NCBI GenBank assembly: GCA_051362555.1 | Contig: CM120649.1 | Coordinates: forward strand, 19,792,567 to 19,856,566 | Direction: 5' to 3' | DNA: 64,000 nt | Source of the DNA: Lingula anatina | Lineage: Eukaryota; Animalia; Brachiopoda | Part shown: positions 17,679 through 63,300 of the stretch, piece by piece | Layout: the number at the start of each line of letters is the position of its first letter | Position numbering within the stretch: the stretch's first letter is position 1 | Notes under the pieces: model-generated | Told to the model about the DNA's origin: nothing | Database searches by the model: none | The model's input: the letters and a program-made list of their open reading frames with translations, nothing else | Made by a program: the position numbers and the translations under genes

Positions 17679-20600
17679 CTACCTGCTGTCCACGGAAAAC
17701 TTGGCAGGTAACGAGTGCGTCCGTAGCACCACACGCTTGGGTTTTTCATATTTAAATATAATGCTGAACATGTCTCCACCCAGTCTGTTAGCAAGCCAGC
17801 GGTTCTTGAGGACGGCTATCTTCAGGGCCTCACAGGAGAAGGCTGTGGAGTAATTGGTGTGGACTGATCTACCCATACCCTCAAGGACGATGAGATCAGC
17901 CGCCATGTCACGTATCTTCAAACTCAGGTCATAACTGATATACCTAGAATATACAACACAATATCAATCAGTTAATATCTTAATAGATACTCTAGTTAGT
18001 TTTCAAGCTAGACTCCTGTCTTTATGCACAGGCATTCAAAATCATATGAAAACTGATGGAGTCTCATTTTATGCACTTCAGTAGTTTCCTAATATTTTTT
18101 ACCTCATAAATACATTTTCTTCTGTTACCTGAGATCAAGACAAGGAGAAGCCAGTCCAGACTGTTACCTGAGATCAAGACAAGGAGAAGCCAGTCCAGAC
18201 TGTTACCTGAGATCAAGACAAGGAGAAGCCAGTCCAGACTGTTACCTGAGATCAAGACAAGGAGAAGCCAGTCCAGACTGTTACCTGAGATCAAGACAAG
18301 GAGAAGCCAGTCCAGACTGTTACCTGAGATCAAGACAAGGAGAAGCCAGTCCAGACTGTTACCTGAGATCAAGACAAGGAGAAGCCAGTTCAGACTGTTA
18401 CCTGAGATCAAGACAAGGAGAAGCCAGTCCAGATTGTTACCTGAGATCAAGACAAGGAGAAGCCAGTCCAGACTTTTACCTGAGATCAAGACAAGGTGAA
18501 GCCTGACCAGACTCCATTATCACCAGTCTCTCCTCTGCTAGTGCCCGGGAGATCGTCTCAGAGATGGCGGCCACTCTTTTGGCAAGTATTATCACTTCAC
18601 TGTATGTGACATCGTTCAGTGCTGGCATGGTGTTAGCACATAAGATTACCTGGAACAGGTGAGAGAGAGAGAGTATTATAATATCTCACAGGCAATACAG
18701 GTGAGTGAGAGGTACTCCTAGGTTAGAGGTAACACAGATCTTTCTTTCTATATTATTATTTTTCTATTTAATATATTCTTTATTAAGATCATTATAATCA
18801 TGGTGATGTTTTAAAAATTATGCTATCTCATGTACCTTAGTCCCTCTAGAGAGCAGCTCCCTGGCAAATGGAAACACTCCCAGTATAATGTCAATGCCAC
18901 TGTTGTCACAGAAGATGACAGCACAGTTGTGGACAGGACCTTTCAGCCTCTCTAACCACTGCTCATAGTTATCCACCAACCAGGGCCTCTCTGGGAGTTT
19001 AAAAACATAAAGATCATCAATGGGAATCATTTGAGATTGATTTTGTATGAAATAAAGCTAAATTTCATAGGATTTGGAGGAGTGTGGTCAAAAAAAATGT
19101 TGCACACTTTCTAGTTTTGCTTGGCATCATTCCGTTCTGACATCCAAGGTTTTTCAGGGATAATTTCAGAGCCTTTTTTAAAGAATTATAATTAAAATTA
19201 TAATCGTCTTTAAAATTTAATAAGTTTAAGGAGGCATCTTTCTGTCAATCATTGTGTTTGAAAATGGTAAACAAATTGCCTCACTTGTTGAACTGTGAAC
19301 TAAATGAATATGGTGTTATGATAACCCAGTTAGGTAATGTGGTATAGATGTACAAAACCTGGCTATCACACCTCTCTGTGCATTCATCCCAGCATTGTGT
19401 TAGTTGTGACAGCTGGTTGAGAAAGAATGTGACTCTCACCTTGCAGCCTAGCCCTGGCCTCAGTGAACCCAAACTGGCCCTCTTCCATGATGTTCACCAC
19501 TTCCTTGGCTCCCCAGTCAAACACATTCCCCGCCAGCAATCCCTCCACCAGGGCCAGCTGTTTAGCCTGCCAAGACAAGCTGTCTAAAAACTTCAGATGG
19601 TCCTCTAGATGCTTCAAAGCCTGTTCATTTTCAAATTGCTTTTGCTGTAAAAAGCACAAAACATAGGTAAGAACAAATGCCATTGAAATAAGTCACTAAA
19701 TATGATTCATCATTCATTTTTGTTTATTTTCAAGTCTGTTATTACTTTCTGGAAAAGATAACAAATGCCTCTTTAAATATGAAAAAAAATTACAAGATAA
19801 AAAATCATGAAATCAGAGAGTGATATCACCCAAGGACAGAAGTTACTAGGTATCCTAAGGGAAAAGCTTGAGGTATAAATGAAGCAGTTATCAAAGATAG
19901 CTGGGAAGGACTGAGGTCTAAAATACTGATCCCTTCAGGATGCATGGGTTATATCTCACCTGTATATAAGGGTCCGAGAAACTTGACTCCTTTAAAAAAT
20001 GTTCTCTTGTATCTAAAAGACTACGGACTGTTAATGACCCAAATGCTCTGAAAAGTATAATACAAATTACCTTTATATAGATGTACCTTATATAGATTAG
20101 AAATTAATGAAATAAGGGATTATGTATATTTCTTTTGATTTCAACATATTGGATTGATCTGAACAAACTTAGAAAATGATTCTTATTTACATGTGAGTAG
20201 AAGGTCAAATTAGGACATTCCGATCTCATGCAGTGTCTTCTTTTTTTTTCAGCACAAAAAATAGTTTTTTTAGCTTGAAAGTAAAGGTTGCTGATTTTTA
20301 TGTCTTATCTTGTCACATGACTTACGATGGATTTGCCTTAAACTCCTTCAATCTCTGTAAATATTTGTCCTTGAACTTGGCAGCCCTGTCACTGGCGTCT
20401 GCGGAGTCCGGCTGACTGGCAATAGCACGTTCCACAAACTGATAGAAACCAAATATTGATAAGACATTTGTAAATTTGACCATTACAGAGCTTCGTGAAC
20501 AGTGTAGTCTATTTTGAGCCTCGTTCGCTTCTGCCAGTGTACAGGTAGCAACAGTTACTACAATATTCAAGGTCAGAATAACCAATATCATTGTTTTTTT

Positions 20601-23600
20601 TTTTTTTTTGGAGGAATAGATATACCGATATCAAAAATTCAAATTAGAAATTGTATTCAACAAAATCACGAAAATGCTGACTATAACATAATTATATGTA
20701 TTTATCCAGACATTACATAAAATATCCAAAAACTTCATTTAGTTCAAACACAATCATTATCAATCTGAACATGGAGAACTGTCTATTAGAGAAGCTAATT
20801 TTTCTCCCTAGCTTCAACATTCACTCTGATTTCAGTAAAATCCATAATAATAATTATTCCAAGTATTTTGTCACCTTATCAGTGGCTTCCTCAAAGCACT
20901 GCAGCCAGTACTCCCTGGCCGCCGCGTCCTGGGTCAGGTCCACTACATCAGGGAAATAACTGGACGGGTCCAGCAGTAGTGGACAGTTGACCAGTGGGTT
21001 GGAGAACCTGTGTAACTCTAGCATGTCAAACTGGAAAATATAACAGGAGAACCTGTGTAACTCTAGCATGTCAAACTGGAAAATATTATAAGAAATACCC
21101 AAAATATATCTCATACACCATACTTGTCATTTGTTTACAAGAGCTTTAGATTTGGGAACACATATGAGTATAGCCATGAATTAAATACCCGACGGTAAAA
21201 TTAGTAGCCATGAGCACAGGGTTAGACTGCACAGAGAATTTGGATTTACGGTTTGTGGGTCATATCACTGTGCTCATGGCTTCAAACTGAACACTTGGGT
21301 TCTTGATTTGTCTTAAATTTGGGTACTTGTGCTCACATGCCTAATTCATTTATAAGGCCTGTATGTGGAACTGTTTGTTGTTTCATACAATATATCAATA
21401 CATCTATAACTTACTGTGGACTTTCTCTCCCTCAGAGGGACTTTACTGGTCCTAGGACTCTGTAGACCAGAGCTGCCTGCGTAGTCCTCAATCCACGAGT
21501 ACTTGTCAGCCTCTGGAATAAGACAAAAGAGGCATTAATACACATATTCTGATGTCTATTTTTCAATGCTGTGACTTGGCAGCAATGTGTTCCACTAACA
21601 AGTCTGTTAATAGACCATTTTGTGTACATTTAAATTATCTTTTTTGAGAGGCTTATCATCTTCATCAACCAACAAACAGATGTTCTCATTGGCTCAAGTG
21701 TTCTGTTATAATTGGTCATAGATATCAATTGCATTTTCAACTACTACTTATTGTACTGAGCATATCAAACTGTGTTTTATTAAAATAACAATACCAAATG
21801 TACGCATTTGATAAAAGTAATAACTAATACAAATTATTATATTGAAAAAATATTTAGTGAAGTGTGACAAATGAGGGACTGAGGTCCACTTACCCTCCTC
21901 CTCAGCTCCTTTCAGAAAGGCTCCTATGGCCCCAAGGTATCCCTCATGTCTGAGAAATAGAGCTTGGATCTCTCCCTGAAACAGGCAGTGAGTAATTGTG
22001 CTAGGTGTGACAGTGAAGTGGGTAATTGTGTTAGGTGTGACAGTGAAGTGGGTAATTGTGTTAGGTGTGACAGTGAAGTGGGTGATTGTGTTAGGTGTGA
22101 CAGTGAAGTGGGTGATTGTGCTAGGTGTGACAGTGAAGTGGGAAATTGTGCTAGGTGTGACAGTGAAGTGGGTAATTGTGCTAGGTGTGATAGTGAAACG
22201 CATTGTAAAAATACTAGTTTCCCGATTTCTTCCTCATACAGTTCTTTACATATCAAATGTGTCCAATTATTCATTCTACTTGCCAAATAAAAAATGGAAT
22301 ATTTTTTTAAACCATATATTCCACGCATCTAAATATCATAAAAAACTAGCATTTCTGAATGTGAACAAAATTCTATACAACCATAAATTTCACAACAAAA
22401 AGGTGGACATAGTAACCAAACTGCCACAACAAATCCCTTAGATTCTGGCAATAAAATACTCACTTTAGACCAAAAACTAATAGCAAAAGAGATGGTCTGC
22501 ATAGTCATAGGGTGACCTCGGATGAAGAAGCCACCAAAGTAGATTTTCTTCAGCTTGTGGAACTTGGCGTGTAGATAAGCCAGTTGTCCTATGTCATTGC
22601 TAATACTGATCAGAAGACTCTTGGCAATGTCTTCCGACTTGAAGTCTGCATCTGACATAACAAACAGATAAGAAATTTCAAATATGATAGTTCTGATGTG
22701 GAGATTTGTGTAAATCATTTTACATGCTATTTATTAATTGTTTATTTATTTATTAAGCCCATATGGAACATCTGAAGGAACCCTATGCTATGGTTAATAC
22801 ATAATATATATATATATATGCACATAATAAGAGATTTGCATGTGAGCTGGTCACAAGAGTGGAAAATCCCATCTCTTCCTAGCCCAGTGATATGTAACTA
22901 GTGGCAGGCTTCACCTACACTGTCTCTCCTGTGCCGACCGAGCTGCTCTCCCAAAACTGCTGGCAATGACATCAGAGGCCAGGCCCACCCTGTTGTAAGC
23001 TCCTCCATAGATGTCCTTCACCAACATGTCAATGTTCCTATGGTCTCCCTTTGCTGCCAGTTGTAACAGCTCATCAAAGCCCTGAGTGTAGGAAATAACA
23101 ATAATAAGGCAGCGAAGCTGTCAAATGTACAGACAAAAAGCTGTAACAGCTCATCAAAGCCCTGAGTATAGGAAATAAAAGTAAAATGACCATTAAATAA
23201 CAAATAGTCTCTGTAAGTCAAGATTGGCAGGGCAAATGTGCCAGATGTGACAAAGATGGCCGATTGTGTTAGTTGTGCCACTAGTTTTAACATCACACTG
23301 TAAATACCTTAGCCTTGGTGAGCAGAGATCCAAGACCCCAGAACGTTCCTCCTCCCATAGATGTGCCTCCAACTCTCTCATATTGACCATCTGCCTCTAC
23401 CTGCAATATTACAGCAGCACTGATCAATAAATTTAAAATTGCACAACTTATCATGTAGGTCAATATTATCTTCATGACTTTGACATTGTGATTGCTCATT
23501 GACTGGTATTCATATTACGTCTTTATTTTGTTTTCATAATTATAAATATAGAAGTTTTTCAAAGTGTATAAGACTCATTTCATGTTATTTATTTATTTTT

Positions 23601-26600
23601 TGTTTTTTTTTCTTTCTTGAAAGTAACAAATAATTCATATATATATACAGTGTTTCCCCTGGCTTTCAAGCTCTGCGAGGTGGTAGGCAGTCCGCGATCC
23701 CAGCAATACTAGGGGGGTCGGGGGGCATGCCCCCCTGGAAAATTTTTTAAATCGAGGTGCAATTTGGTGCATTTTAGGGTATTTAGAACTGATTTTTTTT
23801 ACATTTTATGTGGCACTGAATTGTCTTGTTTTAGATGTTTTGAGGAGTAAATTCAGTAATGACATAACAAAGGTTTGGACAAAATTTATTTTCCAGTCTG
23901 TGCATTCACTCAGTTTAGTCCTTTTCAGTTTATAGAACATACTCTTTCAAAAAAAGAAAAAAAGTTAATACTTTCAAAAAAAAAAAAAAAAGTTAACTAC
24001 TTTAATACTTACAAGAAACGAGAAAAAGGGCTTACTACATTGAATTATTTTTAAATTGACCAAAAAGTTGATAAAATATGTTGTTTTTACCGTTTTCACA
24101 TTCTTGTGAAAGTAACTGGTCAATTGACTTTGCGTGTGGGAGCGCTTCATCCTAATATAAAACTGCCGCAAAAGTTCTCTCTCTTGTCGTTCAGCGCAAA
24201 GCGACTCCCGCTACTACTTATACGTAGTTTGAGATGTAATTTATAATCAACAACTTCAAACACCGTTAAATGAATGCCTCGGAATTAAAGAGATGAAAAT
24301 CACACTTATCATCAATTTTAGTTCTTCGTTTATTCATTTATATGGTTCTATTCAGTCATGGAAATTCATATTCAATGCATAAGTTTCCACGCGAAATACT
24401 GACGTGACCCAGTTTTACAACGCTACTGCTTTCACAAAACTCACCCATAAATCAATAGAAAATCTTCTCCAAGTTTATAAAATCAACGAAGTTCACTTTA
24501 TTTGCTCCTTTTTTATCAGTGAATATTCGTAAACTATAAAAACAAACAACAGGCGGTCTGAATTTCGGAACATGAAGTGATAGAGAAAGTGTATTCTAGA
24601 CACGTGATTAAATGGTGTCAAGAACAGTTGCCTCGTTTCGCTCTGTTTCTTATACTTCAAATAAGGCACAGAACTGCGAAAACGAGGCACTCACAGGGAG
24701 ATAGTAACTGCTGGTTATTTTTAGGCATACGCACATGCGTCTTTCCGTTACTACTAAATCAAGTTCTCAGAAGCATGGGATTACTTATGTAAACAGAAAA
24801 TGCCATATTTGCTTAGAAATAAATATAATTTTCAGTTAGCATGAGTGACAATATACTTTGTTGTTCCATATAGTCCAGCGAGGCGGTGCTTTTGACAAAT
24901 TTCAGCGAGGCGCTTGCAAATATCATCGAGGCAGGCGCCTCAATCATTTAAGTGCAGGGGAAACACTGTATATATATATATTCCTTATGATCTTTTTTAA
25001 CTGAAATACTAAATTATAATATATTATCTCAAGACCCAATCAAAGAGGTATTTCAACATTATTTAACCAAGACCCTCACCTTCAATATGCTCACTCCAGA
25101 CCCTATATTGACCAATAAATACGGGAATATTTCAGGGTCTGAACCCACAGCCTGGAAGTCGTACTCGGGGTTGCCATGTTTGACATAGGTGAATGCCTCG
25201 TCAGAGATGTTCTTCAGCAGAAAGTTGCAACCTTTTATCAAACACTCCATCTCATCTTCTTTATCTACCCTGGAGTATACACATTACACATCTCATCTTC
25301 TTTATCTACCCTGAAGTATACACATTACACATCTCATCTTCTTTATCTACCCTGGAGTATACACATTACACATCTCATCTTCTTTATCTACCCTGAAGTA
25401 TACACATTACACATCTCATCTTCTTTATCTACCCTGAAGTATACACATTACACATCTCATCTTCTTTATCTACCCTGGAGTATACACATTACACATCTCA
25501 TCTTCTTTATCTACCCTGGAGTATACACATTACACATCTCATCTTCTTTATCTACCCTGGAGTATACACATTACACATCTCATCTTCTTTATCTACCCTG
25601 GAGTATACACATTACACATTACACATCTCATCTTCTTTATCTACCCTGGAGTATACACATTACACATCTCATCTTCTTTATCTACCCTGGAGTATACACA
25701 TTACACATCTCATCTTCTTTATCTACCATGGAGTATACACATTACACATCTCATCTTCTTTATCTACCCTGGAGTATACACATTACACATTACACATCTC
25801 ATCTTCTTTATCTACCCTGGAGTATACACATTACACATCTCATCTTCTTTATCTACCCTGGAGGGTGCAATGATGGATACACATTTAACACTTATGGTGT
25901 CAAGGTTCTGAATCAGGAACTATAAATTTAGAAAACAACTGTAAACGAAAGGCCTCTTCTAGAAAGTGAACTATATATAACTGTGTGAATGCACGCAAAT
26001 TTTGTTATAATTTATCATGCACAATAATCAAAACAAAAAACAAACATACTCACAAACCTAACACTTACTGTACCCCTAATTTACTGGTTATCAAATCCTT
26101 GTACTTGAAGGCTCCCCCTCCTGTGACCTTGATGACCTTGTTCTTCAGGTTCTCCTTATTTGCTGGCAGTAGGTTTCCCTGGATGAAGTCCAGGCAGGTC
26201 TCTATAAATTTACTCTCAAACTTCACAAAATGTAAGGCATCTTGGTTCTCAATGTCCTCCACAACTGTGTATATATGCTCTGCATTCTGGAGAAAAATAT
26301 AAATTAAGTTGGTAACGGAGAAAATTGAAAAACTGAAGCACTGAGTGTGATGGTAGGGTGGGTGCAAAGGTGGGTGGGTATGGCAGTGGGGTAGGGGTGA
26401 CAGTGGGGTAGGTGGGCTATGGGGTGTGTGTGTGACAATCAGGTGGGTGTGACAGGTGTGTCCTTGAAGATTAAGTACATGATATCAATGGTATCTCATC
26501 ACTGTACAATTTGCTAGAGCTCAAAATTATTTAACATAAAACTTAAACAGACCTGGCAACATATAACAGTCCTCAGAATGCACAGAACTTGTCTAATGCC

Positions 26601-27695
26601 TTATGTTAAAACAATAGAATAATCTCAGTATACAATGGGAGTAATAGTCCTAAATAGTATGCAGAATGCACAGAGTTATCCACTCTACTTAAAACCATCT
26701 TCTTGGACTAGTTCAGCAGCTCTACTATGTGTACCTCCAGATTATCAAGGCCCTCTGCCAGTAGTGACTTCTTCCTCTGTACTGTGGAAATGTAGGCAAG
26801 CTTGGCCAGGGAACCACCTCAATGGAATGAAATGAAAACACATGGGAAAAATGATATAAAATTCTCCAGTGGAGTGAAGGCAAGAATGAATACCATTTCC
26901 ACCTTTTACCTTTATCCTTCAAATTCTAGCACAGCAGAATCAGCTGTCACCCTGATAAGTTAATGAATCTAAAAACTACATTAAATAGGGAAGACTGGGG
27001 ATAGTTGGACCCCGGGGTAAGTTACCCCCCCCCCCTCCCCCATCAATTTATAACAAAGTAACTATATGCCTTACGGGGTAAAAGAATTTATCACATCATT
27101 TTGTAAAGTGACCGTATCCAATAGTGCTAAGAAAGCATTGGCAGTGAGTCCAAATGAAATAATTTAGCATCTAAAAGTAACTTTATTAAAGAGACTTGAT
27201 GGGGGGTCAACTTACCCCGGGGTCCAACTAGCCCCGATCTTCCCTAACTCAAGAATACCACAATACTGCATGGGTACCCAGTCTACATTATAGATAACAA
27301 ACAAGCAAATAAATAAATAAATAAAATGAAATAAAAAATATCTATAATAATAAAAATTAAAAACAAAAATTATTCGGAAAATTGGAGATTTTTAAAAAAA
27401 TTTCAAAGAAAACTTAATATTTTCTTTTGAATTATGGTAAACAAACGTGGTACTTTTAAGTATCTATATGTTTTGGCATTCAGTAATCGATCTAGGTGAC
27501 AGCCGAGTACGAGCATGACTTCTTCAAGTTCCTGTAAAACTCCAGTACATGCACTTATTAAACAACAGAGCAATCTGACAGTCGACAGCTTCAAAACTGA
27601 CCTATATCAATTGCAAATCTTTTTGCATTTTTCATATTTCTGAATGCCTCTGCATGTGAGAGCTCAATGCTCTTGGCATATTGCGATTCAGCCAT
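17679..27695 (-). CDS. PANK4: Pantothenate kinase 4 (type II PanK domain fused to DUF89/ARMT1-like 4'-phosphopantetheine phosphatase), 16 coding exons
   Basis: Exons approx 27695-27602, 26817-26735, 26286-26069, 25269-25080, 23400-23308, 23081-22919, 22651-22464, 21975-21894, 21510-21415, 21030-20875, 20439-20326, 20047-19960, 19646-19440, 18989-18835, 18649-18480, 17943-17679; peptides [120 protein letters not shown]. Confidence 0.96.
18122..18512 (-). repeat. 39-bp tandem array copying the PANK4 exon 15 donor junction (10 donors including the real one)
   Basis: Minus-strand unit GTAACA+GTCTGGACTGGCTTCTCCTTGTCTTGATCTCAG matches the last 33 nt of the exon plus the donor. Confidence 0.95.
21001..21086 (-). 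repeat. 45-bp duplication of the PANK4 exon 10 acceptor junction
   Basis: ATATTTTCCAG/TTTGACATGCTAGAGTTACACAGGTTCTCC occurs twice; exon starts at 21030 or 21075. Confidence 0.93.
21990..22200. repeat. 30-bp minisatellite (7 copies) abutting the PANK4 exon 8 acceptor
   Basis: Unit GTAATTGTGCTAGGTGTGACAGTGAAGTGG, ending ~15 nt from the AG at 21977-21976. Confidence 0.95.
23062..23178 (-). repeat. Duplication of the PANK4 exon 6 acceptor junction (80-nt spacing)
   Basis: TTATTTCCTAYACTCAG/GGCTTTGATGAGCTGTTACA at 23081 and 23161. Confidence 0.92.
23648..24968. mobile_element. Non-autonomous DNA transposon (hAT-like), 1.3 kb, in PANK4 intron 4
   Basis: TIRs CAGTGTTTCCCCTG / CAGGGGAAACACTG, TATATATA on both sides, subterminal GCGAGG repeats, no transposase ORF. 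Confidence 0.82.
25248..25863 (-). repeat. 41-bp tandem array (about 15 copies) copying the PANK4 exon 4 acceptor junction
   Basis: Minus-strand unit TGTAATGTGTATACTCCAG/GGTAGATAAAGAAGATGAGATG = 19 nt intron + first 22 nt of the exon. Confidence 0.96.
26988..27244. mobile_element. 257-bp MITE with ~43-bp TIRs and TA target duplication (Tc1/mariner-type) in PANK4 intron 1
   Basis: TA-GGGAAGACTGGGGATAGTTGGACCCCGGGGTAAGTT ... AACTTACCCCGGGGTCCAACTAGCCCCGATCTTCCC-TA. Confidence 0.85.
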
Positions 27696-27699
27696 GTCA

Positions 27700-28245: not shown

Positions 28246-31200
28246 ATGACTGCTTGCTGTTACACGACCGTCGCCTGCTTAATTTCCCTGAGCCTGCTGG
28301 CTAGTATAACAGGTAGTTTTATTTTTAATTTTTCTGTTAAATTACGGACCTTGCAGTGATTTATATTTGGTCAATTAATTGAAGATCTAGAGGTCATCTG
28401 AAAGTATTTATAACCAAACACTAAATAATTATGTTAAATAACATTTTATTAAGGGCTTTAAATTATGTGAACTGTGTCAGTCTTAGCTGTTACTTTTGAT
28501 TTTTAATAATATAATATAATCTTTATTGAGCACTAAAATGCATACATATTACATTTTACAGGCTCTCTACACTAGTCATAACAACTTAGCAACAATTATA
28601 CAAAGCTATACAATACTTAGAGCGGATTCTCAACGAATTGAGCCAGGCTCCACAAAGCCGGTGACCCAAAAATGGCGGACGTACATGAAAGAAAACCGCC
28701 CAATCCTTTAATAGTCTCTCCGCCTCCCCCCACGTCGTCCCTGCGGGATACAGTAATTAAATCTCGGCTCCGTTCGCCATGCGGAAGCTACCTGAGAAAT
28801 ATTAACTGCGCATGCTCATCAGTTAAACTCGTGGTGAAGAAAGCATGGCGGCAGAAGGTGTTCGAAGGAAAAAAGCTCTTCTGTTTTATTATCTGTCAAA
28901 ACAGAGACGAAAAAGGAATGAATTGGCCCGTAGAGCAGCAACGAATCGACTATCTACGGAGATAATATCACCAGAGATATTCACAGAACTACACAGCCCC
29001 AGTAGACGTAGTTGGAGGTTGGAGCCGAGATTTAATTACTGTACCCCGCAGGGACGACGCGCGGGGAGGCGGAGAGACTATTAAAAGATTAGGCGGCTCC
29101 TCCTTCATGTACGTCCGCCACCTTTAGGTCACCGGCCCTGCAAAGCCCGGCTCAATTCGTTGAGAATCCGCTCTTATTGAATGATTACTGGGAAGCAGCA
29201 CAGAATAAAACGACTATTGCTATTGGTGGGTGTGTCGTTTTTTCAAACTTTCAGTTATATATAGATATAATGTTCTCAAACACAATTCACTTTTTGGACT
29301 GAGCAGCCACTGAATTTTTTCATGATCTGTTTTCTGCTCAGGAGGTATCATTAATCTAATTCTTCTGACACTATGTTCTTCACATTTCAGTAAAAAGTGG
29401 ATCTCCGTTTCAATTTCATTACAGTGGGGGCACTTGCGATTTTCAGTAGGGGTTTTAGGGGATGTATAGCGGCCACGTTCAATTTCTAATTCGTGGTCAC
29501 TAATCCGCATTTTTGCAATAGTCTTCATTTCTGATGGGGTGACTTTCATTGACAGATATTTTTCAGGGGTGTAAGTTTTTTTAAGTAATCTGTATGTCCT
29601 GAGTTTACTGTAGTTATCACTTTCCAGGTCTTTCCAAAATAGTTCCTCAATTTTATTGTTGATAGCATCTCTTAGGTTTTCAAAGTTATCTAGTGTTTGT
29701 GTATCAGTTTTATGACCCAGACCCCAACACTGTATAAATGTTCTTATTGATTCAGACCAACAGGGTCCTTTTTCTTTTTGCTCCTGTTCATAAATGTTTT
29801 TGACCAATCTGCTGGAAGGTAGCTCTTTGAGTCTGGCGCTGTATCTCTGTGTCTGTTTTGCAATATCAGAATAGAGTGGAAATCTTCCAAATTCAGCTCT
29901 ACAGGCATTGTTCATAGCATTTTTTTGTACACCTAGTGCCCATTTGCACATTTTTAGATGTAGTTGTTCAAAAGGAAATTTATTTAGTTTTGTAAGTGAC
30001 ATTTGTTTTTCCTTGAATATTTCTTCAGACCAAACTTCACATCCATATAGTAAGATGGGCTTGATGGTTTTGTCAAAAAGTTTTAAGTTGAGTGTGGGAG
30101 ATGTTATCTTGTTTGAGGACAGGGCTGTTTTAAGAGCAAAAGTTGCTTTTAGAGCCTTTTTCTTTAAATTTTCAATTGCTTTTTTCATTGAACCTGTATT
30201 TGTAAAGGTTAAACCCAGATAATTGTACTCTTTTACTGATTCAATGGCTATATTATTTATTGTAAATGATGTTGCAGAGTCTAATTTTCCTTTTTTATTA
30301 AATATCATGATCTTGTACTTTTTTTCATTTATGTTTAGTTTCCACTTTTTACAGTAAGCTTGCAGTGTCGTTAGTTTATTTTGTAGACCATCTCTGGATG
30401 CCGATATTAGGACAAGGTCGTCAGCATACAAGATGTGATTCAGTCCATTAATTGCACCGGGCTGGTTGCAAGAAAGGAAAGCCTCCTTGAGGTCATCCAT
30501 GTATAAATTAAAGAGAGTGGGACTAAGGTTATCTCCTTGGCGGATTCCTAATCTTGATAGAAATGGGGTAGTGTAACCTAAACCTACCGAGATGCCTAAT
30601 CTGGTGTTACTATACATGCTTTTTATGACACGGTAGAATTTCCCCCTAATCCCGAGTTTAAGTAATTTCAGTAATAGTCCCTTGTGCCATACTGAATCAA
30701 AGGCTTTTCTCATGTCAATGAAACAGGCATACAGCTTTTTGTTTTGATTGAGATACCTGTTGACTAGTGATTTCAAAGTAAAGATATGATCTGTTGTTCT
30801 ATAACCTGGCCTGAAGCCTGCTTGTTCTTCACTTAATTTGTTTTCATTGTTAATATGTTGGATGAGCCTGTGTGCTAAAACTGAATTAAATAATTTCCCT
30901 AAGCAACTAGTTATGCAGAGGCCTCTATAGTTTTCAGGGTTCATATGTTCTCCTGATTTAAAAAGCGGGATTATAATTCCTAGGTTCCAAGATTCAGGGA
31001 TTTCAGATGTATTTAGCACCATGTTAAATAGTTTTGTGAGCACAACTGCAAAATACTGTGCTCCTGCTTTCAACATTTCATTTCTCACCTTGTCTTCCCC
31101 AGGTGATTTCCCATTTTTTAGATATTTAATGGCATTTTTAACCTCTTTCACTGTAATAGGTTTGTCAAGTACTGCTTCACCAGGTAGGCTTTCATAAGAT

Positions 31201-38739: not shown

Positions 38740-38778
<39 letters not shown>

Positions 38779-39245: not shown

Positions 39246-39292
<47 letters not shown>

Positions 39293-43858: not shown

Positions 43859-43862
<4 letters not shown>

Positions 43863-43908
<46 letters not shown>

Positions 43909-43929
43909 GGGCTCGCACACACACACACA
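43863..43929. repeat. (CT)n followed by (CA)n microsatellite
   Basis: Directly visible. Confidence 0.9.
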
Positions 43930-50200: not shown

Positions 50201-53200
50201 CCAGAGAGAGGCTCATTGGGATCCTTAGGAAGGTGGGCCTAGTTTTCTGTTGTGTGTCTTTACCCCAAAAGATTGGAGTAAATTTTGCAGTTTTAGAGAC
50301 TGATTTCTAGATAAACAATTTTTGAACCACTGTTTCCAATCATATTTTGTAGACAGGTATATAACTAAATTTATGTGATTATCTGTTCCTTCTTGGAGCT
50401 TGTAAATCCTCAGCAATACAATCCATCACGCCAGTCTTTATTTTTGCCAAGAGTAATTTGGCCTCACTATATGCTGCTGTAGACTGAACCAACAATGTCT
50501 GTGCCCTGTGTCTGATACACTAACATGTGTGAAAGTTTTTGGATTTCTGGATCTTCATTGGGGGCTCTGGACCCACTGTGGCCTTCTGCAAAATTTTCAG
50601 GATTTTCAGTTTTTACAATTTTCACCACGTACTAGTAAGTAATGGTAGTTGAGTATTGAATTCAGCATCTCTGTCGTTATATAATATTTCAGCTGAGTAA
50701 TGAGATCATCCGTCGCTGTTGTAAGGAGATTTCTCTGGACAAGATATTTGATGGCTATGTACAGTCCAGTATGAAGAGCCTGAATGAGTGCATTGAGTGC
50801 TGTGAGCAGTGGAAAGACATTTATAACAAGGTGGGCTATGGTTAGGCTTTTTGAAAAAAAAAAGGAAATTTAATTTGATTAAATAAATGATAAGTGAATA
50901 GATGAAGGCAGAAAAACTGGATTTTTTTTAATGAGTGAATTTGAAATAAGTAACAAATATTGAAATCAGAAATACCATTCCTGTTGAAAAATCTTTAAGA
51001 GAGAGACCTTATTTGTCAGTGACATTTGTACATTCACAAGACTTGATAAATATGCACAAATTTTTACATGTTTCTGTAGTAAATTGAATACCCTTGAATG
51101 ATAAGATATTTGAACCCTGTTTGATGTTATTCATTTACAGCATTTCTGAAATAAAAACTAGTCTTCAAGACCTGTTATCATGTATCTTATTTATTTATTT
51201 ATTCATTTTTGCCTTAATTTTTCCCTGCCAGACTGCCAAGCTCCACCACAAGTTTTCTCCCTCAGGCTGGGTGCTGGATAAGAGTGGCATCTTTGCCCAG
51301 GTGGATGCTTTCATCCAGAGATGTAAGGATCTCTTAGAGGTAGGAGACAGTGACAGTTCACTTTCACTTTCACTTTTTATCAACACATCCAACTAATACA
51401 TTGTATCAAAACACATAGAGGTTTGGTCATTGATTTGTATGAGGTGTCAACAAGCATGAAGCAAGCTTGATGAATTTTCATTCCTTTAAATCAATTATTG
51501 CCTGGGGCAATCGCCCAGAGACATTGGACTAGTAAAAAAATTAGATTTCATATAACCCAGACTGAGTTTTAACAGTAGACCCAGATTACCTGAAGTGCTA
51601 ATAGCCAAAAAGTTTTTTTTTTTTTTTTTTTTTTGTATAGACTGCAGTTCTCATATGCTCCTAGCATAAAAAATAGTCATGAAAACCTCTTAAGGACTAA
51701 GAGGTATGAAATTTGACCACTGATGTTTGCACTGTTTTTGTCTAGGTCTGTGAGTGTCAGATCCACTTTGCCAGACGAGAGGATGGCAACAAGACAGAGA
51801 TGCCACTGTTCGCGGGTCAGAAAGGACCCGAGATAGCACGGAGCCTGCTGGAGATAGAGAACGCCTTTGAGAAGAATCTGAACTACTTGAGAAGTGTCAA
51901 GAAGACCATCTTGGATGTGAAGGCCACTTCCTGGCATGATGACTACAACAGGTGAGTTAAGAACATGTGAGGTCATTTGTCTTCTGAAGTTGCAGATTCA
52001 AATCCTTTCAGGTGCTCTAGCAATTGTTTTACATGATGTCCATGTTTTAATTTCAGATTTATACTTTGTTCATATTGCTTCATTTGGTATCCATATTAGT
52101 TCTGGACCTTGTTTTTAATGTATTCATATTGTTTTGTATAGTATCCATATTATTTCAGTTTCATATTTATACTGTATTCATATTGTTTTATATTGTATTA
52201 TTTTTACGTCCAGGTTTCGTGCTGGTATCAAGGACCTGGAGGTGATGATGCAGAATGTGATCACGTCAGGCTTCGAGACAGCCACCACGGTGGAGCAGGG
52301 CGTGGAGCTCCTGGACGTCTTCATGCATCTGTCATCTAGAGAGGTAAAGAGTCAGAAATATGACCTGTGATATGTGTGATAGGACGTAGATTAAGCTGTG
52401 AGAGACAGGGATGGTGTTAATATCTGAGAATGTGGGCAGAGAAGTGACCGCTGTTGTGTATTGGGACAGTATTGTAGCTTACTAAACAACTAGTATGTCG
52501 TGTAAGCTTTCTTGCTTTATAACATAGCATGGCAAGGGAATGTCATAACACTACTAAAAACTGTTGTCTAGAATGGTGGGTGCCTCTCACATGCTTATTG
52601 TTTTGTTACATAAATATATATCATTTCTGACTGAAAGAACAGTTTATTGTTTTTTTTGCTCAATAACTGTGCTGTTCAAACAACCATTAGATGTATTCTT
52701 TCTTTTAGTGATAATATTCTCTGAATTGTGACAGTAGTGTACAAATAACTTATTAACAAGTCTGTGTGAAGTTTTAGACTATAGTTCTTGTGTCAAAGTA
52801 GTTATCTTCAGTAGAGTTAGAACTCTAACATAGCCCTGTAGTGTTGTATTTTGTGTCTATGAATTGGTTTGTTTTCAGCCTGATCAGGATTCAAAACTGC
52901 GACCAGAGAGAGACCGAGCGGTATTATTGATGTTGATGACTGATACTTTGCCTTTTTTTCCCTCTAGCATGCACTGTATTTTCAAGTATTTCTGTTCAGA
53001 TTCTCTACATATATTGATTATTTAACATATTTTCCCTGTAATTTAGAAACACATCATGCAATTTTAGCCTTATTTTGTGAAATTAGTTTGTTCAAGGCCC
53101 CATTGTTTTTTCATAAAATCCCATTTTATATATCCCAAGCACTGCAACAATTCTTGTTTTAAAATGTAAATAGAATAAAAAAATAAAAAAAACACTTCAT

Positions 53201-56200
53201 GTTATTTTTTATCACAAAAAATCCCTTTCACACATCTTTTAGCATACAAAGTGCCCTCACAGCATCACAATTCCCCCTTCCTTTACTTTGTATGGATTAT
53301 AAAGGCAAGATGGTAAAATTGAACTGAAATTGCTTATTTATAGAATTGCAGATTTTGGCACTTGCATATGAACTTGCTTGTGACATATGGCATGCTTGCA
53401 TTTGTTATAGATGTTGCTTATTGATTTTATTGAAGCAAATGTAAAGCCCATCAGCTTTACTGTGTTAAAATGAATAGAATGAATTTGTATCAATTCATTA
53501 AAAACCTTTAAATATTAAAAAAATCCATGGTTTGTTCTCTGTGCATTGAGATGTGTTAAAAAGCATAATATACAGAACCAAGATATGCAGCCTGAATGAA
53601 TATAACTCATATACTTGATTTCCACTATCTGCAGGCCATCAGAAGAAGCCTGGACAAGAAGACAGTGGATGTGTATGGTCTGTTCAATGATGAGTTGAAT
53701 GCTGTGAAGAAGGAAATGATGCAGAAGTCCACAGCCATCCCCTTGCCTCTGGGCCACCCTAAATATGCAGGACAGGGGCACTGGGCCAGACAACTCAAGA
53801 AGAGGATAGAGAGATCTATGATGGTGAGTCATTGTCCCGTTATCCCACACGCTGCCACCATGATGGTGAGTTATTATACCATACGGTGCAATATACCACA
53901 CTGTGCAATCAAAATAGAGAGACAAAATCTAGCTGCTGTCACCAAAATGCTAAAAAATTACTTATCAATACAGTACCTCATTCTTCACTGTTTCAGATCT
54001 TGGACCGCGCCCACTTCCTCCCTCATGCTGGTGCTGGAGACGAGGCCAGGGCTCAGTATCAGCAACTCTGTGCTGCACTGGACGACTTCATTAGGAAGAC
54101 TTTCAATGAATGGAGTCAGACTATAGACAGGGTACGTAATAGGTAGACCTCAGAGACAACTGATTATTATGTGTATAGGAAAGATGTTAGAATTATAGGC
54201 TCTAAGTTATAAAGCACAGTAGCAGCAGCTATTTGCTGTTTTGGTGTCTTTATCAGGAAGGTATTAAGGGAGGGAATGAGAGAGATGTAAAAAATCTAAC
54301 TTGATTTTATCATCTATTTCAGGAGCCGTCCAAGTTACTGGAGATTCCTCTGATGGCCCGCAGTCTGGAGAGGCCGCCCATGATAGATGTCAATTTTGAC
54401 AGGTATGGGGCACAAAATTATCATTATTTTGTTATTTTTTTGCAGTACAAACCTCTAAATGCTGACTTGATGGATCTATCTAGAAAATCTTGACTATTAG
54501 ATGAATGTAAAGTATTTAAATTACTGATTGATTCTTATTTTTGAAAAAAAAAGAAAAAAATAAAGGGATAGAGAAGATAGACCGTGAAAGGGATTTTCAA
54601 CAGTACATAAATATTTTACTCTAACTGCTCAATTATCTTAAGATAATAATTATCACATGTGCAAGGATATCACACTGTCACACTTGCAGGTCCCTCCTGA
54701 AGCTGTTCCAGGAAACACATTACTGGGAAAGGCTGCTGTTTGAGATCCCACATTACTGCAGTGACGTCTGCAGTAAAAAAGAAGAGCTGAGAATTCTCAG
54801 AGAAAATGTACTTCTGGTTGTCAGAGACTACAACAGGTAAATATGGTGTCATTTGACTAGTTTAAAGCTTATGATTGTGTAATTTAATTTTTTACAGAGT
54901 ATTTCAGGGTTACTGTAAAAAAATTGAGAGGTGGAATTTTATTGGAAAAAAAATTGTGCCATGTGTCTATTAAAAAATGATTTTTGAAAAGTAAATGACT
55001 AGGAACATTGTTTATTTAAAAAACTTTATCATTGCTTGGTATGAGGGTTAAAGGATATGAACGTCCTAAATTAAATATTTTAGTGTATAAGTCACATCTT
55101 TCTTTTATTTTTCAGAATCATAGCAGCACTGTCTCCAGAAGAGAGAAGTTTGTTCAAGGAAAGAATTAAGAATCTTGATAAGAAGATTCACCCTGGTCTT
55201 ACCAAGCTGACCTGGGCATCCAAGGGGGTGTCAGATTACTTCATAGGAGAGTGCAGAGTCCAGGCCAGCAAGGTAAGAGAGGAAAAACACTTCTTTATGA
55301 ATTGGAACCAAATGTTCTTTTGTCACAAAAGTGCTAGATTTTATGATAGGTCTCTTGGGACACAGACATCACCCAGTGATGTCAGTGAACAATCAAGATA
55401 TCAGGTTGACTATGAAAGTCTTAAAAAATATTACTTTTTGAAAAAGAAAGAAAAAAAAAGAAATATAAAATATGTACTCATCAGTGTTCTAACTTCCCCA
55501 ATCTCAGGTTCAAGCTATAGTAGATGACTACAAGGGAGCCAACATGAACATCTCCAGTAGCTGTAAGAGGATCAGTGAACTCCTGCTGCTCAAGATAGAC
55601 GGCAAGAAGATCTATGAGGACATGCAGTTTGATGAAGATCAGGTAATTAAGGAACCTTTTGGCAGTCTTAGTCATAGCAATTTTAACATTTTTGTTGCTA
55701 GAATTCCAGATGGATATCCTCCATCTTATTGTAAAGGAATTTATTCCAGTATTGAGTTTGATTAAATTTAAATTGAATGTACCTTTAATTATAGTCTTCT
55801 AACAGATATTACATAAGAGTTGTTTTCACCTTACACCTGGAGAAAAGAAATGAGTTGCAAAAATGTCATATTAAGTTTTATGCATAGTAATGATAGTAAG
55901 AAAGTGTTTAAATTTATAAATATGCTCTACAGGAGAAGCACCGTGCCAGTGTGAAGGTTAAGTTGGAAGGAATCCATGCTGAGATTGTCAGGACAATGAA
56001 GAGTACATATGAAGTATTCAGAGGAGATGGTGGGGAGGTACGTATATTGTATGGATCAAACATATCTATTCAGGTGAACATTAAATGCTGTTAAGTAAGT
56101 AGTATTGGGATATATTGTGGACAATATAATATCCTCTATACTGACCTATATGTTTTCATTGTGATCTCCAGGTCCAGCAGCACTGGCACAGGTACACTGA

Positions 56201-56880
56201 GAAGATGGACAGAATGTGTGAGGAGGCGTTCAGACTGAATGTGAAGTGGTCACTACAGGAGCTGTCCAGGGCCATCAATGGAGACGGCAAGACTGCCCCC
56301 AACCCGCTGTTCAAGGTGAAGGTGGTGTTGGAAGGAGACAAGGTGAGTGTTGTCATGGAAACTAATCAAATATAGAAAAAATACACAATTGCTACAATTT
56401 AATTTTCATGGAAGATTTTAACATAATATTATTAAGAATATCAAAATATGGGTACACAGGTCTTAGAGGGAAATTCTTTACATAGCAGTGCCTTTAAAAT
56501 AATAACATTTGAAAAACAGAAAAGAAATGTTCATTGTAAAGTATGAAATATAAATATTTATAGAGTGTTTTGTAAAAATGTTTCTTTCCTTATATCAGGT
56601 TGAGTTTAACCCCACATTGAAGCAGCTGGCGTTCATCGTGACAGCCATAGGATCCCACCTGACTAAGACTATCTCCAGTATACGCAGGCTGCCAGACCTG
56701 CTCACTAAGAAAAAATCTACCAAAGATGTATGTCATTTTCATTTGTTTTACACATTTACTTCTGAAATTCATAGTTTAAAGCAAGAAAACAAAGACTATA
56801 TTTCTGTCTTACATGATAACAGCAGGGTTTTTGTTTCAAATTATGCGGTGATGTTACACCCAGATATTATTACTATTATA

Positions 56881-56917
<37 letters not shown>

Positions 56918-59864
56918 CAGCCCATCCATGATGTTGTGGCCAGAGATGAGGAGATCAGGAAGATCCAGAACGCCATCAAGACAGGAATGGCGACCAATGC
57001 CACCAGTCTCCAGGAGTACCTGACCACCTGGGACAACTACCGCGAGATCTGGGAGATCAACAAAGACGCCTTCATCAGGAGATACCAGAAACTGAACCCA
57101 CAGGTGTCCTCTTTCCACGCTGATATTGAAAGGTACATGTGTGTTTTTTAAACTGCTGTATTGCCTTTTGGTAAAACTACTTTTTACTAAAGTTGAATGT
57201 GTTAACAGAAACATAACCATTTGTTCCTTGGCCCATTTGTGAACTATCCTGAAAATTTCATCAAAATCTGTCCATAACTTTTTGCATAATGTCCCGAACA
57301 GACAAATAAATTAATGTAACCAAAAATACTTGATCTCATTGGAGGAGGAAAATATTTTTGTAATACAACTAAATGTTATATAATTAAATATAAACAGGAA
57401 TGATGACTTTTATTACAAAGTATTTGACTGAGGACATAACACTACATGATAACTCTATATTTCCAGATACACTGAGGTAGCTAACAATGTTCAGACCCAG
57501 GAGACCATCCTAAACATCCAGTTTGTTCTGTTAGACTGTTCTCCTCTCAAGTACTCTATCCTCAGTCACTGCCAAGAATGGCAGAACAAGTTCACTACGC
57601 TGCTCAAGGATATCGCCACCTCCAAACTGAACGAGCTGCACAGCTTCCTGCAGGATAACGGGGCAAAGTGAGTTTGTACTGACTGAATATTTGTGGTTTT
57701 TATTTTTATTTCATTGCTATAAGTCAGAACTGTCAACAAAAGTTTGAGCTGTTACCTGTAGGTTGTCAGTAATGTTAAACTAAACTTGATTGGCAGATGA
57801 CAAAGAAGTCACAATGTAGACACTATTATTTGGCTGCAGTATGTCATCTTTTAGTTCAAATAATTTAGTATTGATGATTTTCTATTTGAGAATAAAATAA
57901 TTATTTTTCAAGCTGATAAATTTGTTAAGATATGCAGCTGAATTGGTGAAATTTAGTATGATTTTTTTTTCTTTATTTAAGCTGATAAATGTGTTAAGAT
58001 ATAAAGCATACCCTATATTTCCGTAGGGTAAGCAAACCACCCCAGACCCTGGATGAGCTGGCCGACACCCTGACCCTGTGGGAGACCCTGAACAGTGATC
58101 TGAGCAGTGTGGAGGCCAAGTTTGCCCCTCTCTACGACCAGTTTGCCATCTTGACCAAGTATGAGGTGCCAGTGCCAGAGGAGGTAAGGGATTGGGCTTA
58201 TCTTGTTCTGCAGATGGCAGCACATAGATAAGCTATTTGACTAAATGGGCATATTGGATTGACTGGAAGCTTAATGTTACATTAATAGTGTCAGACTTGA
58301 AAAAAAATTATTGAAACTGTTATAGTTTACTCAGTAAATAGGCCACCCTAAGTTTGAAGTTGTACAATGTTTAAAGATTTGCCGTCTTGTTTTCAAAATA
58401 GATCTTCAATCAGGTTTACATCTCTTCTGTTACTGGCAGTATTGTTTAATTTATGTTATGCAAAGAATAGTTAAGTAGGTAAAATTGCATTAAAATGTGT
58501 GATCCTATTGAAAAACATTGAGATTATACCACTTGTGTATGCAAACTGATGTGCTATGTTTTGTTGTAGACGACAGCTATGTTAGATGAACTTCCTAACA
58601 AGTGGGTGGAATTCCAACAGACTCTGATAGATGCTGATGCGATGCTGAAGAAAAATAAGGTAACCTACTTAGCAGTGCCCTTATCAATTTATGTAAGAAA
58701 TAGGTCAGGATTCCTTATACATATTCCAATGACTTTTGTCACAGTTTTGAAGTCCTAATATTCAGTTTATATTAAAAAAAAAAAGATAAATAAAAAAAAT
58801 AATAAAACATATCCTCAAGAAGGAGATCATTGGTGCTTGCAGGAGAAGTTCAAGACGGGACTTCTGGCGCAGGCGGAAGAGTTCAAGAAACAGGTGGCAG
58901 CACTGCTGTCAGACTTCAGCAAGAACGGGCCGTTCAGTGGCAGTCTTGGCACAGAGGCGGCGCTGGTGCAGGTAGCTGAGATCAAGGCTCAGGTGAACAA
59001 CTTCAAGGAGCAGGAACAACAACTGCGGCGAGGACTTGGGATCTTCAAGATTGATCAGCCGCCATCTAAGGATATAGGAGTACTGGAGAAGGTATGGTTT
59101 ACTACCTGTATGTATGTATGTGTATGTGTGTGTTGGTACAGTGTTTGTCTGTCTGTCTGTATATAGGAGTGTTTTGCATTTAATGTATTTGATTTTAAAT
59201 GCTGTTTAAGCTTCCTTTCAATATCTGTAACTTTTTGCAGTATATGGGTCTCTTTCTGACAAGAACATTATAAAAATCAATTATTATTGTCTGTGTTTTG
59301 GAACAATATCATGTGTTCTATTCTAGGATATAGAGAGTATAGAGACAGTGTGGGAGATTACTAAGGAGTGGGAAGAACACTGGGACCAGTGGAAGCTAGT
59401 ATAACAATATCATGTGTTCTATTCTAGGATATAGAGAGTATAGAGACAGTGTGGGAGATTACTAAGGAATGGGAAGAACACTGGGACCAGTGGAAACAGG
59501 GGAAGTTCTCTGGATTGCAAACTACAGAAATGGAAGATCAGTGTCAGGTAAGTGGACATGTGATCCTTTTTTTCTTCTTTTGTAATTTAACAGAAACTCA
59601 GGAGTGCTATAAGACACTACAGTTTGGAAATGTTGAAATTTTTTTATTATTTTGTAGCTTCCTTTTCTTAATAATTGAATGTGCTCCGTTAGATCAGTTC
59701 ATATTCAGGCCCGTAGCCAGGGGGGGTTCAGGGGGTTCAAAAGAACCGCCCCTTTTGTTTGGAAAAGGTTCGCTCTGGGTAAAATTTGATCTAGGTACAT
59801 GGGGATTTTATGGTAAAAGGTCCACTTTTTCAGAAAAAGAACCCCCCCCTTTTAAATTGCTGGC

Positions 59865-59899
<35 letters not shown>

Positions 59900-60264
59900 A
59901 TTATTATCCCCCCAGGTGCTGTTCAAGAAGCTGTCTAAGCTATCACGTGAACTGAAGGACAAGAGCTGGGAGATTGTGGAACAGAGTAAGAATAAAGTGG
60001 ACCAGTTTAGGCGTACCATGCCTCTGATCAGTGACCTGAAGAATAAAGCTATGAGACCCAGACATTGGACACAGATCAGGGTAAGGCTGCACAGGATTGA
60101 GTGTGTGTGTGTGGACAAGCATTTGTGTGTCATGTGTGCGTATGTAAGCATGTGTGTGCATACAAGGGTGAGCATACACATATGCTTGCAGGCACACACA
60201 CATACATGCACCACACATAGGCATGCATAGGGCACACATGCACCCACACACAACATACACAATC

Positions 60265-60317
<53 letters not shown>

Positions 60318-63300
60318 CCAGTGCAGCGACAGCAGAATATACAGAGGGAAAATCAGTATCTTCATCATAATTTAGAATACAGATCTAACCATAGCAATGA
60401 ATTTGGATTCACAGATCATTTTCTATATATTTTCCCGACAGGAAGACATGCAGAGAAGTTTTGACCCTGAGTCAGATGATTTCACCCTGGAGAAGATCAT
60501 CGAGTACGGTTTTGACCAGTACAGTGAGCAGATCAATGATATCTCTGGCGCCGCCACTAAAGAACTGGCCATAGAGGTGGCCCTACAGAAGATCAGTGAG
60601 ACCTGGGAGATTACTGAGCTGGACATTGGACCCTACAAGGACAAAGGTCACTTCAAACTGAGGTCAGTTTTGTCCAGGTCTTAGAAGATTAATAATAATT
60701 AAATATAATAATAATAATAAAAGAAAAAAAATAATCAAAGATTACTTTGAGTAAGATTGATAGCAAAATAGCACACACTTTAGCCTGTAAACTAAAATAA
60801 AACAAAATATGCATTTTATGTCAGCATTCCGAAAATAATTCTATTAGATTGCTTCATGTAAAATGGCATATTGTCTTTTAATTAAAATGGAATAAAAATG
60901 GAATAAGCCTTCCTAATCAGTGTTCAGAGCATTTTTGAAACAAGAAGGGCAGGGCATAATTTTGTTATTCTCCCTTCTCTCTCTTTCTCACAGGTCCACT
61001 GAGGAGGTGTTCCAGTTCCTGGAGGATGGCCAGGTTCAGCTGTCCACCATGAAGGCATCCAGGTTTGTGAAGGCATTTGAGCAGGACGTGGACAGGTGGG
61101 AAAGGACGTTGTCATTGATCATGGAGACAGTGGAGATGTTGTTGACTGTACAGAGACAGTGGATGTACCTGGAGGTGAGGCACAGTTCATACATATTACA
61201 CTGAATATATATATATATATATATTTATAGTTATTTGGCACATTTTCAACTATTCAAATGTTTGTGTATCACAATGAAAAGTTGTTTTTTTTTTGGCATA
61301 TTTGAATGAGAAACAAAGATTTACTACAACAGCCACACTGAATAAAGAAAAAAATTAGTAATACAAAGTTAGTATATTGTGATAGCAACCACACAGGGAA
61401 ATACCAGACCATTCTAAGTTCTAATACATGGCCCCCACAGCCCAAGTGAAGTGGGTAATATCTCTGGTTTTATTCCAGAATATTTTCCTGGGAGAAGACA
61501 TCAGGAAACAGCTGCCCAGGGAGTCGGCCGACTTTGATGAAATCAACATCAGCTGGAAGAAGATCATGACAACCATGAATAAAGACAAGAATGCTTTGAG
61601 AGCCACACACCAGCAAGGTGCGAGCCTCCATGTGTATCTTATATGTTCTTGTTAGATGATTGAAATAATTATGAATGGATGGATAGATTAATGAATGGAT
61701 GAATAAAAACATGTTTTCTAATTCAAAATTGTTCAAAGGTCAAACTATAACTTCAACTTATTGCAAAATTTAGCCCATTTCATCATATGCTATTGTCTCT
61801 TATAACAACATTCTTTGTCCACCATAGTCTACAATGTATATCTAGTTGTTTATAGAAATCACTATGGGAACTACTTCATGTATTTGTATTTGATTATGCC
61901 TGGATGTATCTGTATCTGTACCATGTGTTCTAGGACTGATGGAGAGACTGATCCAAATATGCTATTATCTCTTATAACAATATTCTATGTCCACCATGTG
62001 TTCCAGGACTGCTGGAGAGAGTGACTCAAATATGCTATTATCTCTTATAACAATATTCTATGTCCACCATGTGTTCCAGGACTGTTAGAGAGAGTGACTC
62101 AAATATGCTATTATCTCTTATAACAATATTCTATGTCCACCATGTGTTCCAGGACTGCTGGAGAGGCTGACCCAGATGAACAACAAGCTAGAGGAGATCC
62201 AGAAGTCTCTGGACATGTACCTGGAGACCAAGAGACAAATCTTCCCCAGATTCTACTTCATCTCTAATGATGACCTCCTGGAAATCCTGGGCCAGTCTAA
62301 AAACCCTGAGGCCGTCCAACCACACCTGAAGAAGTGCTTTGATAATATTAATAAACTAAAGATGGGAAAGGTAGAGTTCTTGGGGAATAGTTAGGATGGG
62401 GATGGGAAATTTAGTTTTTGGTAGGGGTAAAGTAGAGATGTTACAGGTTTACAGTCAGCCTGGAATATTTTTCACAGTCTAAAGACCTTTATATTTGTCT
62501 GGGAAAAAGGATAACTTTTTTTTTTAAATGCTTACTCATAAATACTAAATTCTAAGTTTAGCTATTGATGTTTCAACAGTTGACTGTACTACAAATTTGC
62601 TACTATGAAGACCAGCGTAACATTCTTGTAAGGTTTTTCGGCTGTAAAACCATAATGAGCAGTTAAGTATAGCATGTTTCAGAGATGCGGTTTTGCATTT
62701 CAAGATTATTTTTCTTGTTTACTTTTCACAGTTAATGTATTTGTGTCTCATCTGTATTATCTATCATTTCAGACTGGTATCACACAGAAGTGGGAGGCGG
62801 CTGGTATGAGCTCTGCTGACGGAGAGTATATAGAGTTTGTTCACTCAGGGACACCTGTACATGTGCTGCTGGATGGTCCAGTAGAGGTGAGGTCAACACA
62901 TAATTACATGCTTGGAAATGTTTTTTGTCATATTAATGTACATTATTTTGTTGATTTGAATAAATGTTTTAGTTTGGTTGGGGTCAAACAGTAATTACAT
63001 CCATGGAAGTGATATTTATATAATACAAATAAACTTAAACAAATGTGTTCATATCTAATAAATAATGAGTAAGTCATCAAACTCACTATCATAACTTTAC
63101 AAATATCAAATTAAGTTTCACAGGAACTATTATAGGTATTTTTAAAATTTTATTTTTTGGCAAATAGGGGTTTTTGTCCCTTGCTTTATAACATTAAAGG
63201 GATATTTTAGGTATTGCCTTCAGATTTTTAAAATGTTGTCATGGATACTGCCCTTGTCTTCCAGGCCTGGCTGTGTGACATAGAGAGAACCATGCGGACC

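What the first reader, a model, noticed from the sequence alone, without database searches (positions are those of the whole stretch)
18122..62175. Splice junctions are systematically tandem-duplicated into introns: at least eight decoy splice-site arrays in three genes
Seen: arrays whose unit spans an exon-intron boundary at 18122-18512 (39 bp x10, donor), 21001-21086 (45 x2, acceptor), 23062-23178 (80 x2, acceptor), 25248-25863 (41 x~15, acceptor), 34694-34940 (43 x5-6, donor), 53818-53880 (42 x2, donor), 59302-59495 (101 x2, acceptor), 61785-62175 (73 x4, acceptor). Units are unrelated to each other, each copies its own local junction, and the exon-proximal copy gives the conserved protein. 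Most of the long-unit tandem arrays in the window sit on or beside a splice site although junctions are a small share of the sequence. Known: tandem duplication across splice sites is a proposed route to intron gain and new alternative splicing, usually as a rare event. Inference: about 8 of ~110 junctions suggests a lineage-specific process targeted to exon borders (e.g. R-loop, nucleosome or methylation boundary-linked repair slippage) plus splicing/NMD that tolerates perfect decoy sites.
Basis: partly seen in the sequence, partly recalled or inferred. Interest (0 to 1): 0.85.

Follow-up and report, generated by a model that had tools for sequence, protein, structure and literature searches.

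The report
Lamp-shell "mirage" repeats at splice sites
In three genes of a lamp shell (the brachiopod Lingula), seven exon edges, and likely a decayed eighth, are copied with their splice signal into the neighbouring intron; this repeat type is already named "mirage" in lancelets, and here the copies likely stem from untidy DNA-break repair and are likely skipped in splicing.

Summary
The observation largely holds. Seven of 111 modelled junctions (PANK4 4, a membrane-protein gene 1, DNAH2-like dynein 2) carry clear local copies of themselves; the eighth (53818) is a borderline, decayed copy. Of 16 non-simple local duplications in the window, 7 span a junction against 1.1-2.0 expected (P 3e-5 to 7e-4; about 0.02 if junction copies are twice as detectable), and 3 more end 12-24 nt before an acceptor. 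Short-read contigs of two separate samples break exactly where the 45-nt duplication predicts, so that one is not an assembly error. The organism is Lingula anatina. This is a known repeat type: lancelet "mirages", human F7 intron 7, chicken "exon stuttering". The scan found it before on other DNA (35 notes, at least 12 genomes, 3 listed in this genome). Added here: all three near-identical two-copy cases have filler at the join (4, 8 and 43 nt, the last holding a piece of a very high-copy repeat), which points to end-joining repair, not slippage. "Lineage-specific" is not supported. Decoy use is barely tested: 9 reads at one junction, all at the exon-adjacent site.

The parts
17676..27695 (-). 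PANK4 gene, 16 coding exons, 786 aa; host of four junction duplications
   Evidence: Fumble + ARMT1-like domains on the matching public protein
18122..18513 (-). PANK4 exon 15 donor array: 39-nt unit (about 32 exon + 7 intron), real donor 18480 plus 9 extra GT donors; decoy use gives a stop at codon 700
   Evidence: raised contig depth in two samples
21001..21086 (-). PANK4 exon 10 acceptor duplicate: 41 identical nt (11 intron + 30 exon) + 4-nt filler; real acceptor 21030, decoy 21075; decoy use would add 15 aa in frame
   Evidence: contig breaks at 21030/21057 in runs X1 and X3 match the prediction
21987..22197 (-). 30-nt x7 intronic array ending 12 nt before the PANK4 exon 8 acceptor; does not cross the AG
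23062..23178 (-). PANK4 exon 6 acceptor duplicate: 37 nt (17 intron + 20 exon), real acceptor 23081, decoy 23161, 43 nt between the copies
   Evidence: 9 RNA reads join exon 5 to the real acceptor
23106..23140 (.). 35-nt fragment of a very high-copy dispersed repeat lying between the two exon 6 junction copies; family not identified
   Evidence: summed contig depth 122,227 (X1) and 90,611 (X3) in this bin against about 100 and 15 in the neighbouring bins, loose ends at both borders; no second copy in the window
25248..25875 (-). PANK4 exon 4 acceptor array: 41-nt unit (19 intron + 22 exon), real acceptor 25269, 14 extra copies (13 with AG); the most distal copy has a longer, pyrimidine-richer intron end
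28246..36930 (+). Unnamed five-exon gene for a predicted signal-peptide, single-pass membrane protein (labels by eye); open frame in the model
   Evidence: last exon has no Pfam match
34694..34942 (+). Donor array of exon 2 of that gene: 43-nt unit (24 exon + 19 intron), real donor 34717, 5 extra copies (4 with GT), decaying with distance
47156..64000 (+). DNAH2-like axonemal dynein heavy chain, first 33 exons, runs off the window
   Evidence: best matches: dynein axonemal heavy chain 2
52051..52198 (+). Decayed 54-nt intronic repeat ending 15 nt before the dynein exon 10 acceptor
53818..53909 (+). Borderline, likely old copy of the dynein exon 11 donor (real 53823, decoy 42 nt downstream; in frame, +14 aa)
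57910..58002 (+). 24-nt intronic duplicate (69 nt apart) ending 24 nt before the dynein exon 22 acceptor
59302..59495 (+). Dynein exon 25 acceptor duplicate: 93 nt (25 intron + 68 exon, one mismatch) + 8-nt filler; real acceptor 59428, decoy 59327
61785..62174 (+). Dynein exon 30 acceptor array: first period 172 nt, then 73-nt periods that lack 99 nt between two ACCAT words; real acceptor 62153, three decoys

Best explanation
These are 'mirage' repeats, local copies of an exon edge with its splice signal, that likely start as DNA-break repair duplications, likely grow by unequal exchange between copies, and likely persist because splicing picks the copy next to the intact exon. Shown: the copies, their intron-plus-exon make-up, their excess at junctions in this window, filler at three joins, and presence of one duplicate in two separate samples. 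Inferred: a staggered break is filled in and end-joined, leaving a 37-93 nt duplicate plus filler or a captured repeat fragment; two copies then seed arrays of up to 15, sometimes after an internal deletion in the exon-side copy. A duplicate inside an exon is removed by selection; one across an edge leaves a whole exon and spare sites in the intron. Exon definition (acceptors) or first-site scanning (donors) likely favours the exon-adjacent site, and premature stops likely clear most mis-spliced RNA for 6 of 8. The excess at edges is probably real but modest and partly a product of these filters.
For: 7 of 111 junctions copied; 7 of 16 duplications span a junction, 1.07-2.01 expected. All 3 near-identical two-copy cases have non-matching sequence at the join: 4, 8 and 43 nt; 35 nt of the last belong to a very high-copy repeat. 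Insertions at repair joins are described as end-joining scars (PMC13269935, passages). Internal copies of the 39-mer share variants that the real exon end lacks, and end copies differ most, as in lancelet arrays (PMC3087553). The public protein model uses the exon-adjacent site at all 4 PANK4 arrays. 9 RNA reads (2 in X12, 7 in X15) use acceptor 23081, and no joint to its decoy is listed. In human F7 identical downstream donors are functional yet silent (PMC1557585 abstract).
Against: The origin rests on three joins; no nearby exact template was found for the 8-nt filler and only a one-mismatch 9-mer for the 4-nt one, and fillers could be later mutations. The 37-nt case could instead be a target-site duplication of a truncated mobile element. 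RNA depth was 1-7: no joint was listed for acceptor 21030 or donor 18480, and joints under 3 reads per run are not listed. By a matrix from this window's own sites, the distal decoy scores higher than the real acceptor at PANK4 exons 4 (10.7 vs 7.3), 10 (10.1 vs 8.9) and 6 (7.5 vs 7.2), so why it is skipped is not explained by site strength. Two decoys are in frame. Eight of the ten clear junction-linked duplications are at acceptors, which filters alone do not obviously predict.
Confidence: 0.55

Rival explanations
1. Duplications are actively targeted to 3' splice regions: breaks or nicks form where the spliceosome engages the nascent RNA (R-loop or chromatin border), so mutation itself is concentrated there.
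For: In PANK4 and the dynein gene all 9 catalogued duplications span a junction (6) or end 12-24 nt before an acceptor (3); the chance for a wholly intronic one to end within 25 nt of an acceptor is 0.07-0.09 each (class defined after seeing the data). The excess remains after removing exon-internal placements (3.5- to 4.0-fold).
Against: One window chosen for the feature, n = 16. Four duplications in the long TMEM164 intron and two past its stop are far from junctions, and 0 of 7 TMEM164 junctions are copied. No copy holds an exon-exon join, so no sign of a spliced-RNA template (by inspection). No data on R-loops or chromatin.
Confidence: 0.25
2. There is no true excess: a repeat-prone genome with short introns, loss of exon-internal copies, longer detectability of copies anchored to a conserved exon, and choice of this window explain the count.
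For: Median collapsed intron 319 nt, so 11-20% of surviving duplications span a junction by chance; doubling the odds for detectability gives 3.2-3.4 expected and P about 0.02.
Against: The 7 clear cases are 95-100% identical between adjacent copies, so decay bias should be small; P 6e-4 in the strictest unadjusted null. Earlier unreviewed notes report higher densities elsewhere in this genome (not tested here).
Confidence: 0.12
3. The spare sites are functional: they tune expression through unproductive splicing or add short in-frame peptides.
For: 33 of 35 extra copies keep AG or GT; two are in frame. A public PANK4 isoform (X2) starts at Met139, just inside the exon with the 41-nt array, which decoy use would produce.
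Against: Intact sites are expected of young or homogenised copies; older copies lose them (34934 region, one 41-mer copy). Isoform X2 would also follow from any break of frame between Met21 and Met139. No decoy joint listed in RNA (low depth). Units are unrelated and lie in unrelated genes.
Confidence: 0.05
4. The arrays are assembly artefacts.
For: Two-copy cases are 97-100% identical; the dynein and membrane-gene arrays and the 41-mer array were not checked against reads.
Against: Contigs of X1 and X3 (different samples and studies) end at 21030 and restart at 21057, exactly as predicted for the duplicate; depth is raised over the 39-mer and 30-mer arrays in both; copies carry graded differences and fillers.
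Confidence: 0.03

Closest known systems
Lancelet 'mirage' minisatellites (Adh3, globins BflGb6 and BflGb9, troponin C, PGBD5). Read: passages of PMC3087553 and PMC3902484; the original Adh3 paper was not held
   Same: Tandem copies spanning an exon-intron boundary, at both donors and acceptors, units of tens of bases, most copies keeping AG/GT, end copies most diverged, normal splicing apparently unaffected.
   Different: Different phylum (brachiopod); density counted here (7 of 111 junctions) whereas the passages read give single loci; fillers and a captured repeat fragment at joins are not mentioned in those passages; copy-number and somatic instability shown in lancelets were not testable here.
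Human F7 intron 7 37-bp VNTR (PMC1557585; abstract and passages)
   Same: First unit spans the exon-intron boundary; identical downstream donors stay silent. Same layout as the 39-mer and 43-mer donor arrays.
   Different: Single locus, donor only, tested by mutation; most cases here are acceptors, for which that scanning rule does not apply.
Chicken 'exon stuttering' on dot chromosomes (bioRxiv 10.1101/2025.09.16.676548; passages; supplements not seen)
   Same: Local expansion of exon-edge fragments into the adjacent intron; mechanism left open, DNA repair suggested.
   Different: Chicken cases are on GC-rich dot chromosomes, span 112-23,555 bp and fill introns; here 36-40% GC DNA and arrays under 630 bp.

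Membership tests
Mirage minisatellites | Repeat unit spans an exon-intron boundary and is copied into the adjacent intron | tested here: met
   7 clear cases, 1 borderline
Mirage minisatellites | Tandem, head-to-tail arrangement | tested here: met
   Met for 6 of 7 (two with 4- and 8-nt filler); the exon 6 case has a 43-nt foreign spacer and is not strictly tandem
Mirage minisatellites | Both donor and acceptor boundaries affected | tested here: met
   5 acceptors, 2 donors, plus 1 borderline donor
Mirage minisatellites | Many but not all copies keep AG or GT | tested here: met
   33 of 35 extra copies
Mirage minisatellites | Regular splicing is not disturbed | tested here: inconclusive
   9 reads at 1 of 8 junctions, all at the real site; public PANK4 model uses the real sites
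Mirage minisatellites | Homogenised inner copies, diverged end copies | tested here: met
   39-mer, 41-mer, 43-mer and 73-mer arrays, by inspection of aligned copies; no tree built
Mirage minisatellites | Copy-number polymorphism and somatic instability | not testable with these tools
   Collapsed short-read contigs give no copy number
Intron gain by tandem duplication | A new intron whose two ends derive from duplicated sites is actually spliced | tested here: not met
   All copies lie in an existing intron beside a whole exon; the PANK4 model needs no new intron

The most novel reading that the evidence does not exclude
Short duplications in this animal are mutationally aimed at 3' splice regions: transcription- or spliceosome-linked breaks are end-joined with filler DNA, so exon borders are hotspots, and the spliceosome routinely passes over the original, stronger acceptor to use a rebuilt one next to the exon. 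That would be a general splicing-coupled mutational bias across marine invertebrates, measurable genome-wide, and a natural test set for how acceptors are chosen.
Probability: 0.25. Interest if true: 0.7.

Novelty: new member of a known kind. Interest (0 to 1): 0.3.

Why it matters
As it stands it is a further example of a named but little-studied repeat type, in a phylum for which two library searches found no report. It matters for annotation (spare splice sites confuse gene models) and as raw material for intron gain or exon extension. It would matter more if a genome-wide test showed true targeting to acceptors, because the origin of mirages is stated as unclear in the lancelet paper and as speculative in the chicken preprint; the fillers seen here give a concrete signature to count.

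Tried and rejected
No whole genome was held, so no genome-wide enrichment test. The run search listed no RNA holder among indexed runs; raw RNA runs were laid instead. Reads were laid only on 18420-23900; the 41-mer, 43-mer and dynein arrays and most of the 39-mer array have no read check. The RNA depth peak at 22995-23177 (about 100) was rejected as evidence of decoy use: those reads run on into unrelated sequence and belong to the high-copy repeat. A second weak hit (dynein exon 24 donor, score 26) was rejected: it is a chance likeness to the copied start of exon 25. Twelve of 28 repeat clusters were dropped before the count as simple or homopolymer repeats. TMEM164 exons upstream of 7856 are not in the window, so 1-7855 was treated as intron. 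No template for the fillers and no second copy of the 35-nt fragment in the window; no look-alike in earlier findings. Paper searches with no hit. The Adh3 mirage paper was not held. Supplements of the cited papers were not opened and may describe joins or fillers.
Full report
Setting. The window is animal DNA of 32-42% GC per 2-kb bin. A PANK4 exon matches a Lingula anatina protein at 100% over 68 aa, and a TMEM164 exon another at 99%. I modelled four genes by hand: the last four exons of TMEM164 (+), PANK4 (-, 16 exons), an unnamed five-exon membrane-protein gene (+) and the first 33 exons of a DNAH2-like dynein (+). The PANK4 model gives 786 aa and differs from public isoform X1 at 3 residues; the dynein model is open over 5508 nt. 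Together they have 111 junctions. No whole genome was held.

Noticed in passing
window 29220-32615 (-): An open 1131-aa endonuclease plus reverse transcriptase frame of a LINE-type element in intron 1 of the membrane-protein gene; likely a recent insertion.
   Followed up: partly
window 23106-23140: Fragment of a very high-copy repeat (depth about a thousand times the surroundings, also abundant in RNA reads); it holds a short CAGC-GAA-GCTG hairpin; family not identified.
   Followed up: partly
window 19394-19415, 21995-22197, 23263-23285: A related motif recurs in three PANK4 introns, once as a 30-nt x7 array; on the transcript strand it holds a CTAAC-like word, and contigs from elsewhere share it, suggesting a dispersed motif family.
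   Followed up: partly
window 9790-10175: A 19-nt x20 minisatellite begins 25 nt after the TMEM164 stop codon, in the presumed 3' UTR.
   Followed up: no
window 23648-24968 and about 32617-34293: Two stretches bounded by short terminal inverted repeats, seen by eye, likely non-autonomous DNA transposons; the first has high contig depth at its left end.
   Followed up: no
PANK4 exon 4, window 25080-25269: Public isoform X2 of Lingula PANK4 (648 aa) starts at Met139, the last codon of the exon piece copied in the 41-nt array; may reflect decoy use or another upstream break of frame.
   Followed up: partly
window 28246-36930 (+): Unnamed gene with a predicted signal peptide, short cysteine-bearing ectodomain, one membrane span and a long low-complexity tail; no Pfam match for the last exon.
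   Followed up: no
window 40231-40860 (-) and 43846-44340 (-): Open frames of 209 and 164 aa between genes; the first has no Pfam match.
   Followed up: partly
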